A DNA stretch of 62,921 bases, the filler included, from Reclinomonas americana ATCC 50394 (Eukaryota), in assembly GCA_048213135.1 (NCBI GenBank). It is 11 parts of 3 records of this genome, joined end to end, with 100 filler letters (N's around TTAATTAATTAA, not from the genome) between each part and the next. Parts side by side here need not be neighbours in the genome. Positions count along the whole stretch, not along the records: positions 4,321 to 30,284 come from PS015368.1; 10 more parts are not named here. One strand, written 5' to 3'. The position numbers were made by a program, and so were the translations under genes. Positions 21,041 to 30,384 of the stretch are shown piece by piece. Under the pieces are notes generated by a model, which worked only from the letters and a program-made list of their open reading frames with translations, had not been told where the DNA came from and did not search any database. The stretch's first letter is position 1, and the number at the start of each line of letters is the position of its first letter.

Positions 21041-21731
21041 TGAAAGGTGAAGGAAGGAGGTGTGCGCGTGCGCAGGGAGATGATAAAGGATTGGGTGCGG
21101 AAAATTGAGTGGTCGGTTGTTCGGATGTTCGCAAATTCGTTGAGGGGGGGTGTAGGTCGGTGTATTAATACTTTNNNNNNNNNNNNNNNNNNNNNNNNNN
21201 NNNNNNNNNNNNNNNNNNNNNNNNNNNNNNNNNNNNNNNNNNNNNNNNNNNNNNNNNNNNNNNNNNNNNNNNNNNNNNNNNNNNNNNNNNNNNNNNNNNN
21301 NNNNNNNNNNNNNNNNNNNNNNNNNNNNNNNNNNNNNNNNNNNNNNNNNNNNNNNNNNNNNNNNNNNNNNNNNNNNNNNNNNNNNNNNNNNNNNNNNNNN
21401 NNNNNNNNNNNNNNNNNNNNNNNNNNNNNNNNNNNNNNNNNNNNNNNNNNNNNNNNNNNNNNNNNNNNNNNNNNNNNNNNNNNNNNNNNNNNNNNNNNNN
21501 NNNNNNNNNNNNNNNNNNNNNNNNNNNNNNNNNNNNNNNNNNNNNNNNNNNNNNNNNNNNNNNNNNNNNNNNNNNNNNNNNNNNNNNNNNNNNNNNNNNN
21601 NNNNNNNNNNNNNNNNNNNNNNNNNNNNNNNNNNNNNNNNNNNNNNNNNNNNNNNNNNNNNNNNNNNNNNNNNNNNNNNNNNNNNNNNNNNNNNNNNNNN
21701 NNNNNNNNNNNNNNNNNNNNNNNNNNNNNNN

Positions 21732-21830
21732 AAAAGAAATAATGCCCAGCATTCAGAAGCAAAAAGAAATAATGCCCAGCATTCAGAAGCAAAAAGAAAG
21801 AATGCTGGCCAGGAAAACTTATACTGCCGG
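21732..21830. repeat. Subterminal 30-bp tandem repeat (AAAAAGAAATAATGCCCAGCATTCAGAAGC), 2 copies plus degenerate copies
   Basis: Read directly. It probably continues into the adjacent N gap, and related motifs occur at 30211-30266. Confidence 0.85.
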
Positions 21831-22217
21831 CGACCAAGGACGACCCTTTCAAAGCGATCAATAGGCGAAACGGAAGCGTTTTCGTCACGTATAAAACCGC
21901 GAGGTTCCACCTGCAGCGCAGCATAATCGGATCCTTTTGGCGAATGCGCTCAAAGCATTGCGGACAGCTGAGCAGCGACACGACTGATCGACGGTGCTGT
22001 GGGATGACTGATGCAACTGCCCAGAGTCGATGTACAGTACTTCGATATCCATCTGATCGATCGACAGAAGTTGCTGCCAGTCCGACGAGGCGACGCTGCT
22101 TGAAGAAGATTTCCGTCGCTCCGATTGAAGTGGCATCGACTTGTACAGATATCTTGCACCTCCTGCTTTACTTCATGCCTTGCACCATCTTCATGATCAT
22201 ACTGATTATGCTTTGAC

Positions 22218-28200: not shown

Positions 28201-30065
28201 CTGACCACACCATACGTTCGCGGACCACCGACAGTCAAAAGTCGCTGCAGCAGAACAACCAGTCGAGGATATTCCTCACGATGAGCCTTCTTGAACAGAA
28301 GCCTGTCCAACGTCAACGATAGCCACTCGCAAGAAACGTGGTCGGCTGTGAACCCCTCGACCTCACAAACAAGGCAGTACCACAAGCGCCGAACGATATC
28401 TGGCACCACGGCTTCTAGGGCATTTGGACGCTCGGACTCCAGCGCCGCGAGAGCCGCATCCACTTCCTACATCCAGAGTCGCAGGGTCATGTGACGTCAG
28501 GACACGCAGTCACCACAGCAAAACGAGTGCTGCTCCGCGCAAACAAGTACAAACCTCGAAAAATGTTAACAATGCGGCCTTGTCATCATCGTCGACTTGG
28601 AGATCTGCAGGTACACAACACAGCAATCGCAGACTGAACGATAAGAACTCAACAGCGACGCGAGTAGACGTTCACTGGACACATCTAATCGCGCGAGAGT
28701 GCAAACATATTGACATCTCCAATAAGCTCCCGCAGCTGCTCTATCACCGTCTCTGCGTACTGCCACTTCGCTTCCAAGAACTTCTGACTATCTTTTCCTT
28801 TCTCGTGCGCCTCGGCGTGTCGCAACATCGCACCAGAAAAAGACAAAGACGGCCGGTGGTAACCAGCAGGGATGCGAAACCCCTGCTTATACTGAGTGCG
28901 CTTGAAACGCCCACCATTGAGACGGTACGTATTCTCAGGCCCACAAAGCAGGCACTCCACATGCGTGTAGACTTTCTGCATGTGGACATCTCTCTCGGGA
29001 AACGAAGGCTGTTTGACTGGAGGAATAATGCCCTTCTCTACTGCGTCCCGGTACGAACCAGCGTACGAGTAAGCGGCGGAGTTAATCGAATCCTTGATTA
29101 CGCTGCACACACGTAGAATGAGTGGAGAGTGAGCTCAACAGTAGTACATCGTTGACTCACAGCGGGCGAAATCCGTGTTCGAGGCTCCAAAGGCAGTCGT
29201 GCCTGTCGTGGGTGGTTGCTGACATAGTCTTGTTATTCGCCTTCCGGCCTTTCGTTGAGGAAGCCGACGGGCGAAGCCATTGCTTCAACTTCTCGTACCG
29301 AGCCTTGAGACGATCATTGAGTGCGCATTGGCGTTTTCGGGCGGGTTCGTCGGCGTCACCGCCGCTGCCACTTGCAGCGTCAGCGGCAGCGGCAGCTGCT
29401 TTCTCCTCTCCATCCACAGCCATGTCCGCGCCAGCAGCCTTCTCCACTGCGGCATCATTCGATTCTCGAGGACGCTTGTGACCACGAGCTGCACCCATCA
29501 TCACCTCCAGGGCACTCGGCGGCGCTGGGGGCCTCTGTACACTCTTGTACTCCACTGACACAAACATGAGAACTTGACAGCGAAAGCTCAACAACAGCAA
29601 GTGGCCTCCGCACCTATCATGCAGTTCATGGTCGTGCCGCTGTTGACTGCGGATTGAGGAAGCGGCGGCCACTCAGCATCCCACTCCACAGTTACCGGAG
29701 TTCCAACGGGAAATCCCTCTTCCGGAGCCCTGCATTGAAGGCGTGCATCAGCAAGATGGCTGCATTCGCAACACAATAATCGAATGCAGACAGGCACACC
29801 TATAAGGCATGATCCAGTGCGCCATAAGTACCCAGTCGTGCATGGGCAGCGACTGGCCAAGTTGCTTCTGGCAAGCGGAGAGCAACTCTTTCAAGTCAAC
29901 GAAGCGGGGGGTCGCGTGTTTCCAGTAAACCTTCGTGAGGTTTGGAAGCGACATACACTTGACGATACACATGCCGTTAACCACAGCGCTCTTCCACTCG
30001 ACCTCGAGTTCACGCATCCGCTCAGCCGTGATCATCATGTAGACCAAAGTCGCGGCCATGTCCAT
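22218..30065 (-). CDS. P-element/THAP9-like DDE transposase with BED-like zinc finger, Cys-rich insert and NHL-repeat insertion; multi-exon, possibly disrupted
   Basis: Motifs occur in the expected order: VECLLCG...MLRHAEAH (~28810-28960), LLTVGGPRTY and FHERTL, GSFDEKG (27344-27352), IRLPVG, FTTDG (~26357-26370), DPPHLGKNLRNNL (~26272-26310), DPMSPQHA, NHL-like repeats (~23770-25850) and RALTTLRTEHFFATI (~23076-23120). Roughly 20 GT-AG exons. Apparent in-frame TGA (24460-24462) and TAG (28685-28687) in my splice model. Confidence 0.8.
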
Positions 30066-30384
30066 GTCACGCAACACACACACACACGACTACAAACGGG
30101 CACAGCGTTGGCTTCCAGTCACAAGGCGTCGCGTGACGCACAAACTCGGCACGTCAGCACTACGCAACTCTGGCAACAACGACACGGGAACGACTTTGAC
30201 CACAGACGCCAAAACTTATAATGCCGGGCCAAAAAGAAATAATGCTGCTCGCAAAAGTTATAATACTTTGTCCCCCACCCCCCCNNNNNNNNNNNNNNNN
30301 NNNNNNNNNNNNNNNNNNNNNNNNNNNNTTAATTAATTAANNNNNNNNNNNNNNNNNNNNNNNNNNNNNNNNNNNNNNNNNNNN

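What the first reader, a model, noticed from the sequence alone, without database searches (positions are those of the whole stretch)
21144..30284. Large intron-containing P-element-like transposon with an unusual transposase architecture
Seen: spliced exons give the ordered motifs GG.RTY / RTL, FDE, TTDG, DPPHLGKNLRNNL, DxM and TTLRTEHFF, inside a ~9.1-kb segment with imperfect inverted ends. Known: FDE...D...D(x2)H...E-x-x-F, with the DxPHLxKxxRN signature, is diagnostic of P-element/THAP9 transposases, which are typically ~750-900 aa with an N-terminal THAP finger. Inference: this protein is much longer and carries domains I do not know from described P transposases. It may represent an undescribed family within or next to the P superfamily. 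No single raw ORF shows it, so automated annotation would miss it.
Basis: partly seen in the sequence, partly recalled or inferred. Interest (0 to 1): 0.9.

Follow-up and report, generated by a model that had tools for sequence, protein, structure and literature searches.

The report
Divergent P-like transposase gene candidate
A long, many-intron gene on the reverse strand carries the hallmark motifs of P-element/THAP9 cut-and-paste enzymes, but it is so divergent that standard searches do not recognise it, and whether it is a mobile element could not be tested.

Summary
They lie in separate reading frames bounded by good GT..AG splice signals. Codon statistics favour the minus strand in 15 of 15 exon candidates. 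A heuristic model gives one gene (ATG 30065, stop 22220-22218) of about 17 exons and 1,740 aa; no RNA data support it.

One independent test supports P/THAP9 kinship. Protein-language-model features of the 199-aa ORF holding TTDG and DPPHLGKNLRNNL are nearest to TNP-like_RNaseH_N/GBD clusters (score 0.93). The back-translated D-x-P-H-L-x-K-x-x-R-N pattern occurs once in the window and in 0 of 100 shuffles.

Every profile or sequence search was negative: Pfam, PDB sequences, 1.84 billion representative proteins, and metagenome and viral scans. Both structure models were too poor to use. No THAP finger was found, and the motif spacing differs from known P transposases.

The "inverted ends" (31 nt, 23/31 complementary) both abut assembly gaps. 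They are suggestive, not proof. Copy number and target-site duplications could not be tested because no genome or reads were available.

Verdict: probably a deeply divergent P-related transposase gene. Its status as a transposon and its unusual architecture remain open.

The parts
21144..21174 (.). Left arm of the 31-nt imperfect inverted similarity; last 31 nt of a contig before the gap
   Evidence: I16, 74% complementary; abuts the N run 21175-21731; 23/31, end-anchored.
21175..21731 (.). 557-N scaffold gap inside the proposed element
21732..21805 (+). 30-bp tandem repeat (2.5 copies, runs into the gap) carrying the 12-mer AAGAAATAATGC three times
   Evidence: TRF, 97% matches; hits at 21734, 21764, 21794.
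22218..30065 (-). Span of the proposed multi-exon gene. ATG at 30065-30063, stop at 22220-22218. The heuristic model has 17 exons and 1,738 aa and is unverified
   Evidence: own dynamic-programming model with GT..AG introns; 15 of 15 minus-strand exon candidates have a positive sense-versus-antisense codon score, sum about 348 bits.
28805..28954 (-). Only zinc-finger-like pattern in the N-terminal part: C-x2-C ... H-x3-H (C2H2/BED-like, 36-residue spacer). It is not a THAP C2CH
   Evidence: regex; no zf-BED, zf-C2H2 or THAP Pfam hit.
28191..28466 (-). Exon candidate with GGPRTY (28212-28229); its donor is CTG|gtgagt at 28192
27302..27490 (-). Exon candidate with ARTLQ (27464-27481) and FDE (27341-27355), the candidate first catalytic Asp; its donor is CGT|gtaagt at 27301
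25930..26526 (-). 199-aa ORF with TTDG (26356-26370, candidate second Asp) and DPPHLGKNLRNNL (26272-26310, candidate [C/D](2)H motif). The two Asp residues are 17 residues apart
   Evidence: (Atlas features nearest to TNP-like_RNaseH_N/GBD clusters).
23037..23255 (-). Exon candidate with TTLRTEHFF (23085-23111), the candidate catalytic Glu. It has E-x-F but no K/R seven residues downstream
   Evidence: (Atlas: no usable hit).
22221..23003 (-). Largest ORF (261 aa), the C-terminal exon candidate ending in an acidic tail
   Evidence: codon score +63 bits.
30234..30245 (+). Fourth copy of the 12-mer AAGAAATAATGC, 40-50 nt from the right contig end. It lies in a 34-nt stretch that resembles 21789-21823 in direct orientation (27/34)
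   Evidence: 4 hits in the whole window, all here; 0 of 100 shuffles reached 4.
30254..30284 (.). Right arm of the inverted similarity; last 31 nt of the contig
30285..30384 (.). Artificial contig linker N44-TTAATTAATTAA-N44; not genomic sequence
   Evidence: 10 such linkers in the window.

Best explanation
The segment holds one long, intron-rich gene on the minus strand (about 7.85 kb, roughly 1,700 codons). It encodes a very divergent relative of P-element/THAP9 DDE transposases.

Shown: the motifs, their order, the splice signals, the coding strand, and the language-model likeness of the core ORF to TNP-like families.

Inferred mechanism: an N-terminal DNA-binding part would recognise the element ends. 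This part has a C2H2/BED-like finger and a helix-turn-helix-like GGPRTY...RTLQ region, not THAP. An RNase H-like domain would then carry out Mg-dependent cut-and-paste transposition. Its candidate residues are the Asp of FDE, the Asp of TTDG, the D-P-P-H motif after strand 5, and the Glu of TEHFF. A greatly enlarged insertion domain would sit between the D(2)H motif and the Glu.

Most likely the gene is the coding part of a large transposon copy whose ends (21144 and 30284) coincide with assembly breaks.

My sub-estimates: P-related, about 0.7. One gene of about this size, about 0.6. A bounded mobile element with these ends, about 0.4.
For: The motifs lie in the order D...D...D(2)H...E on one strand. 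This is the order of the P signature described in PMC8230255 (passages read) and PMC3698922 (passages read).

The D-x-P-H-L-x-K-x-x-R-N pattern has 1 match in the window and none in 100 shuffles.

The Atlas feature search of the 199-aa ORF gave 12 of 30 hits in the TNP-like_GBD/TNP-like_RNaseH_N set. The best score was 0.93, with 169 of 256 features shared and recognition 2401. All ten best named hits share a family.

Coding is on the minus strand. 15 of 15 minus-strand exon candidates score positive, against 3 of 8 plus-strand ORFs. GTRAGT donors number 6 on minus and 2 on plus. A stop-free GT..AG chain from ATG to stop exists.

For the ends: the 23/31 end-anchored inverted match is the only non-microsatellite pair reaching 23/31 among 46 contig-end 31-mers. 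Ten pairs reached 23 or more; nine of them are CT/GA repeats. Of 200,000 random 31-mer pairs, 22 reached 23. A 12-mer occurs 4 times in the window, only next to the two ends.

That contigs break at, or 31 nt inside, the proposed ends is what a repeated element would cause in a k-mer assembly. This last point is inference.
Against: No Pfam P-family model (PF21787, PF21788, PF21789, PF12017, PF12596) and no THAP model (PF05485) matched any exon candidate or either read-through translation at E<=1 to 10.

No PDB sequence match to P transposase was found. No relative was found among 1.84 billion representatives, by word-index searches, or in the metagenome and viral scans.

The Atlas search on the E-motif exon gave no usable hit. 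By the tool's own figures, Atlas scores of 0.9 or more arise for 4-10 in 100 shuffled proteins, and 169 shared features is just under its 170 mark.

The spacing does not fit. D2 to D(2)H is 17 residues, against 33-40 in known P transposases. D1 to D2 is about 130-250, against 70-73. D(2)H to E is about 630, against about 190-200 (compared). There is no K/R at E+7 (compared with the preprint passages).

No THAP C2CH was found. The inverted arms are only 74% complementary, partly a homopolymer and a palindrome, and were not the best inverted local alignment. The shared 12-mer is in direct, not inverted, orientation. There is no second copy in the window.
Confidence: 0.45

Rival explanations
1. 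A host gene that descends from a P-like transposase (domesticated, as THAP9 is thought to be) and has gained extra exons and domains. The end similarity and contig breaks would be coincidences of a draft assembly rich in microsatellites.
For: There is a single copy in the window. About 16 introns with good splice sites and host-like codon usage were found. The N-terminus is not THAP and the architecture is expanded, as expected after domestication. Both 'ends' abut gaps. PMC10824691 (passages read) reports annotated THAP9 orthologues without a THAP domain.
Against: All four candidate catalytic positions are retained. No orthologue was found in any database searched. That result is weak, because even the conserved GPN GTPase next door finds nothing above 74% identity. 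The terminal 31-mers and the 12-mer confined to both ends are unexplained under this reading.
Confidence: 0.25
2. An orphan, lineage-specific gene (or genes) unrelated to transposases. The motif series would be chance plus selective reading, and the Atlas hit a false positive driven by the same short motif.
For: All HMM and sequence searches were negative. The spacing differs from the P signature. The E-motif exon was not recognised. A slightly longer form of the pattern also occurs in 4 unrelated viral contigs. Most ORFs of this window have no Pfam match anyway: 10 of the 148 other ORFs scanned had a hit.
Against: The pattern is absent from 100 shuffles. Six motifs fall in the family's order on one strand.
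Confidence: 0.2
3. A composite. A truncated or decaying P-like fragment (about 28.5-25.9 kb) would be followed on the same strand by one or more unrelated genes, so that 'TEHFF' and the large size do not belong to the transposase.
For: The frame 27246-25930 has two in-frame stops. The stretch 26.9-26.4 kb is ambiguous between two frames. About 3.2 kb of DNA separate D(2)H and the putative Glu. A second FDE...ICDAPN arrangement lies in the 254-aa ORF. Codon scores for the core exons are the weakest.
Against: A continuous stop-free splice chain exists. All exon candidates score as coding on the same strand. No internal duplication was detected: 178 of 300 shuffles scored at least as high.
Confidence: 0.1

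Closest known systems
Drosophila P element and its transposase (P superfamily: P, 1360/Hoppel, Galileo)
   Same: Order of candidate Asp, Asp, D(2)H and Glu motifs. Language-model likeness of the core ORF to TNP-like RNaseH_N/GBD. An intron-containing transposase gene. A 31-nt terminal inverted similarity; the P element has 31-bp TIRs (PMC3698922).
   Different: The P element is 2.9 kb and encodes 751 aa with a THAP finger. Its D230/D303/D339/E531 spacing is 73/36/192 (PMC8230255). Here the segment is about 9.1 kb and the protein about 1,700 aa. There is no THAP and no Pfam match. The spacing is about 130-250/17/630. The ends are 74% complementary and lie at assembly gaps.
Human THAP9 and zebrafish Pdre2 (P-transposase homologues of about 900 aa)
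   Same: Same signature order. An insertion domain lies between strand 5 and helix 4. E-x-F follows the Glu (hTHAP9 E613/F615, preprint 10.64898/2026.09.03.748810).
   Different: The conserved R at E+7 is absent here. [quoted passage not shown] The Tnp_P_element domain found in all annotated THAP9 orthologues (PMC10824691) was not detected.
P-like elements of protists (Trichomonas vaginalis; Kapitonov and Jurka 2009, cited in PMC3698922)
   Same: They show that the superfamily reaches beyond animals, so a P relative in an unsampled eukaryote is plausible.
   Different: No comparison was possible. Repbase and Dfam were not available and I did not see that paper.
hAT transposases
   Same: A [C/D](2)H motif after the second Asp, an insertion domain, and an N-terminal C-x2-C...H-x3-H finger reminiscent of BED. 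The resemblance to BED is recalled, not tested.
   Different: No zf-BED or hAT dimerisation Pfam hit was found. The Atlas hits were TNP-like, not hAT.

Membership tests
P superfamily transposase (P element / THAP9; Pfam TNP-like) | Significant match to the family's profile models (PF21787, PF21788, PF21789, PF12017, PF12596) | tested here: not met
   No such hit at E<=1 to 10 on 16+8+15 single ORFs or exon candidates, or on read-through translations P0002 and P0003. A spliced protein was not searched.
P superfamily transposase (P element / THAP9; Pfam TNP-like) | Catalytic D, D, E with a [C/D](2)H motif after the second D, in that order | tested here: met
   FDE at 27341-27355, TTDG at 26356-26370, D-P-P-H at 26272-26310 and TEHFF at 23085-23111, all on the minus strand. 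The pattern has 1 match in the window and none in 100 shuffles. This is at motif level only.
P superfamily transposase (P element / THAP9; Pfam TNP-like) | Signature-string spacing similar in all members (D-D about 70, D-D(2)H 33-40, insertion domain about 190) | tested here: not met
   D2 to D(2)H is 17 residues inside one ORF. The other two distances are about 130-250 and about 630 on the heuristic model.
P superfamily transposase (P element / THAP9; Pfam TNP-like) | N-terminal THAP C2CH zinc finger | tested here: not met
   There is no PF05485 hit. No C2CH pattern occurs in the N-terminal exon candidates. The 5' end is complete up to the contig end only.
P superfamily transposase (P element / THAP9; Pfam TNP-like) | RNase H fold placing the acidic residues in one active site | tested here: inconclusive
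   AlphaFold2 without an alignment gave mean pLDDT 35.8 (P0002) and 42.0 (P0003). No fold search was run on these models.
P superfamily transposase (P element / THAP9; Pfam TNP-like) | Overall likeness to family members by an alignment-free method | tested here: met
   Atlas features placed 12 of 30 hits in the TNP-like_GBD/RNaseH_N set, best score 0.93. The E-motif exon gave no usable hit.
P superfamily transposon (element level) | Terminal inverted repeats | tested here: inconclusive
   The arms are 31 nt, 23/31 complementary, and both abut N runs. Extension inward cannot be read on the left.
P superfamily transposon (element level) | 7-9 bp target-site duplication; several copies; mobility | not testable with these tools
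   The right flank is an artificial linker. No genome is held. No sequencing run was listed. There is no second copy in the window.
hAT transposase | zf-BED and hAT C-terminal dimerisation domain profiles | tested here: not met
   No such Pfam hits.

The most novel reading that the evidence does not exclude
This is an intact, possibly still mobile member of an undescribed lineage beside the P/THAP9 superfamily, in a eukaryote with no close sequenced relative. Its transposase would be about twice the usual size. A C2H2/BED-like finger would replace THAP, the strand4-strand5 link would be compressed, and the insertion domain would be about three times longer than any described.
Probability: 0.2. 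Interest if true: 0.7.

Novelty: new variant of a known kind. Interest (0 to 1): 0.45.

Why it matters
If it is real, it would extend the P/THAP9 superfamily to a very divergent branch that current profile libraries miss. It would show that the RNase H scaffold tolerates a much larger insertion domain and a different DNA-binding head. It would also give a candidate active DNA transposon in a poorly sampled eukaryote.

It further illustrates a blind spot. Intron-split, fast-evolving transposase genes escape both ORF-based and HMM-based annotation.

If it is only a lineage-specific host gene, the finding is ordinary.

Tried and rejected
- **Whole genome:** none is held. Copy number, other insertions and target-site duplications are therefore untested.
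- **Sequencing runs:** none was listed for 22000-24960, so no reads were laid. No RNA holder was listed.
- **phmmer of the 199-aa ORF against 1.84 billion representatives:** 1 hit at E<=0.001. It is a repeat-rich 1,261-aa protein with 6 short stretches, judged spurious.
- **Word-index searches:** 838 candidates, none at E<=0.01. 103 candidates, none at E<=10.
- **Metagenome scan:** 94 stretches and 1 'relative' (L001). It is a bacterial contig, and the match lies on the pattern used to find it.
- **Viral scans:** nothing related. The pattern scan gave 4 loci: two are the same 265-aa ORF with no resemblance to the query beyond the motif, and two are ORFs of 22-25 aa.
- **Control search:** PF21787 did not ring in the 14 control genomes, so no reference P sequence could be obtained.
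- **Reference sequences and spliced protein:** no P-family reference reached the session, so no profile-profile comparison was made. Profile and structure searches were run on single ORFs and read-through translations, not on a spliced protein.
- **AlphaFold2:** both models were poor, so no fold search was run.
- **Internal duplication of the core:** rejected.
- **An alternative Glu with E-x-F-x4-K/R:** none in a coding frame.
- **Eye impression of NHL-like repeats (25.8-25.2 kb):** no Pfam or PDB support.
- **RNA genes:** no Rfam families or tRNAs in the window.
- **Papers:** Yuan & Wessler 2011 and Ghanim et al. 2019 are not held. The signature is cited through PMC8230255 and PMC3698922.
- **Linker search:** a full-text search for the linker string did not identify the assembly method.
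- **Earlier findings of this scan:** none relevant.
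Full report
**What the window is.** It is a draft eukaryotic pseudomolecule. Ten N44-TTAATTAATTAA-N44 linkers and many N runs divide it into contigs. No whole genome is held for it, and no sequencing run was listed.

The finding's segment consists of three pieces. The first is the last 31 nt of one contig (21144-21174). The second is a 557-N gap. The third is one contig (21732-30284, with two small internal N runs) that ends at a linker.

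Linker joins can be real adjacencies. A caspase domain (2603-3133), a NACHT domain (3534-4220) and twelve WD40 repeats (4323-6887) lie in line on the + strand across the linker at 4221-4320.

| Motif | Coordinates |
|---|---|
| GGPRTY | 28212-28229 |
| ARTLQ | 27464-27481 |
| FDE | 27341-27355 |
| TTDG | 26356-26370 |
| DPPHLGKNLRNNL | 26272-26310 |
| TTLRTEHFF | 23085-23111 |

They are spread over different stop-to-stop ORFs and frames. Textbook splice signals bound these ORFs. Examples are CTG|gtgagt at 28192, CGT|gtaagt at 27301, ttgttttgcag|CTC at 27210, CGG|gtgagt at 25544, AGC|gtgagt at 24557 and ACG|gtaggt at 23036. GTRAGT occurs six times on the minus strand and twice on the plus strand.

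Long ORFs occur on both strands, so ORF length alone does not give the coding strand. I therefore built a sense-versus-antisense codon score, trained on five Pfam-supported ORFs of the same window. It is positive for 15 of 15 minus-strand exon candidates (sum about 348 bits). It is positive, weakly, for 3 of 8 plus-strand ORFs.

No Pfam family was found on either strand of the segment. No Rfam family or tRNA was found in the window.

**Gene model.** I wrote a small dynamic programme with GT..AG introns of 45-1300 nt, simple consensus scores, simple repeats masked and no in-frame stops. It links ATG 30065 to the stop at 22220-22218 through 17 exons, giving 1,738 aa.

This shows that an uninterrupted reading is possible. 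It is not evidence that this reading is used. With 122 donors and 118 acceptors, many chains exist. Several exons are doubtful: 27846-27803, 26937-26571 and 24244-24210. An unmasked run even read through microsatellites.

In the model the candidate catalytic residues are D565, D817, D834/H837 and E1463.

**Is it P-like? Evidence for.**
- The order D...D...[C/D](2)H...E is the P signature described in PMC8230255 (passages read) and PMC3698922 (passages read).
- The longer D-x-P-H-L-x-K-x-x-R-N pattern occurs once in the window and in 0 of 100 shuffles. No tool showed it.
- An alignment-free search of the 199-aa ORF (25930-26526) in the ESM Atlas returned TNP-like_GBD/TNP-like_RNaseH_N clusters as its top set. 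These were 12 of 30 hits, with best scores 0.93, 0.92 and 0.91, 169 of 256 features shared and recognition 2401. This ORF would span the end of the RNase H N-part and the start of the insertion domain, which is where those two Pfam families meet.
- The family was predicted beforehand from motifs, so this agreement is unlikely to be chance. Both lines may, however, lean on the same short motif.

**Is it P-like? Evidence against.**
- Pfam found no P-family or THAP model for any ORF, any exon candidate, or the two read-through translations: P0002 (27246-25930, two stops as X) and P0003 (23255-22221, one stop as X).
- phmmer against PDB sequences found nothing relevant.
- phmmer of the 199-aa ORF against 1.84 billion representatives gave one hit, a repeat protein.
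- Word-index searches gave none. A metagenome scan gave only a bacterial contig. Viral scans gave nothing related.
- The Atlas search of the E-motif exon gave no usable hit.
- AlphaFold2 without an alignment gave pLDDT 35.8 and 42.0, so the fold could not be tested.

**Spacing and other family features.**

| Distance | DmTNP | hTHAP9 | D. buzzatii P | This gene |
|---|---|---|---|---|
| D1 to D2 | 73 | 70 | 73 | at least ~130 (model: ~250) |
| D2 to D(2)H | 36 | 40 | 33 | 17 (inside one ORF) |
| D(2)H to E | 192 | 199 | 191 | ~630 (model) |

[quoted passage not shown] It also stresses a conserved K/R after the Glu. Here the position seven residues after the Glu is Val, and no alternative E-x-F-x4-K/R exists in a coding frame.

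No THAP C2CH pattern occurs in the N-terminal exons. The only finger-like pattern is C-x2-C-x36-H-x3-H at 28954-28805.

So the gene fails most formal membership tests. It still resembles the family in motif order and in learned features.

**Is it a transposon?** The 31-nt arms are 23/31 complementary. Each is exactly the last 31 nt before an N run.

Among 46 contig-end 31-mers (1,035 pairs, both orientations), ten pairs reach 23 or more matches. Nine of these are CT/GA microsatellite ends, and this pair is the tenth. Of 200,000 random 31-mer pairs from the window, 22 reach 23. The similarity is therefore unlikely to be chance.

It is also not the orientation expected of a shared contig-end artefact, because both arms are 3' ends on the + strand yet inverted relative to each other. 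That is inference.

A repeated element would make a k-mer assembler stop exactly at, or about k nucleotides inside, its boundaries. That is the pattern seen here. This too is inference.

In addition, the 12-mer AAGAAATAATGC (one mismatch allowed) occurs four times in the window, and 0 of 100 shuffles reach four. Three copies lie in a 30-bp tandem repeat at 21732-21805 that runs into the gap. One lies 40-50 nt from the right end. A 34-nt stretch around them is 27/34 identical in direct orientation.

Several points weigh against a transposon:
- The arms are short, and they are partly a G7/C7 run and a palindrome.
- They were not the best inverted local alignment.
- The shared subterminal motif is direct, not inverted.
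- No second copy exists in the window.
- Target-site duplication and copy number cannot be examined.

**Context.** Neighbouring genes are ordinary. They include a GPN-loop GTPase in at least three exons (11823-12641, +) and a FAD_binding_4 exon (19722-20048, -).

The GPN exon finds 302 proteins at E<=1e-5 among 445 candidates. None of the 120 listed exceeds 74% identity, and none is the window's own protein. The organism therefore has no close annotated relative in the collection. That weakens the inference one can draw from 'no homologue found'.

**Conclusion.** The most likely reading is a deeply divergent P/THAP9-related transposase gene with many introns (about 0.7). It is perhaps the coding part of a 9.1-kb element whose ends coincide with assembly breaks (about 0.4).

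The claimed unusual size is plausible but rests on an unverified model. Rivals are a domesticated or lineage-specific host gene, an unrelated orphan gene, and a composite of a P-like fragment with other genes.

Transcript data and a genome-wide copy search would settle most of this.

Noticed in passing
window 4221-4320, 30285-30384, 34067-34166, 39139-39238, 42446-42545, 46868-46967, 49508-49607, 53805-53904, 57743-57842, 60578-60677: Ten artificial linkers of the form N44-TTAATTAATTAA-N44 (stops in all six frames) join contigs into a pseudomolecule. Coordinates across them are not contiguous genome sequence.
   Followed up: partly
window 2603-6887 (+): Caspase (Peptidase_C14, 2603-3133), NACHT (3534-4220) and twelve WD40 repeats (4323-6887, one 855-aa open frame) lie in line across a linker. 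This looks like one metacaspase-NACHT-WD40 STAND-type gene, and it suggests that the linker joins truly adjacent contigs.
   Followed up: partly
window 11823-12641 (+): A GPN-loop GTPase (ATP_bind_1) is split over at least three ORFs. The best database identity is 74%, to fungi and oomycetes alike, and no self-hit appeared. The organism has no close annotated relative in the collection.
   Followed up: partly
window 23648-23968 (-): A second FDE...(101 residues)...ICDAPN arrangement lies in the 254-aa ORF, about 95 residues upstream of TEHFF in the model. It could be an alternative compact D-D-E reading or chance. No significant similarity to the first FDE region was found.
   Followed up: partly
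window 27643-28123 and 24933-25124: Very long (CA/GT)n, (CT)n and ACGT-type simple repeats lie inside putative introns of the gene. Two small assembly gaps (27890-27914 and 24966-24985) sit within them.
   Followed up: no
window 48302-48722 flanks: A G-rich minisatellite (units like GGAGGATGAGG) lies on both sides of a 421-N gap.
   Followed up: no
window 50326-53279 (-): Ankyrin-repeat matches in two long minus-strand ORFs.
   Followed up: no
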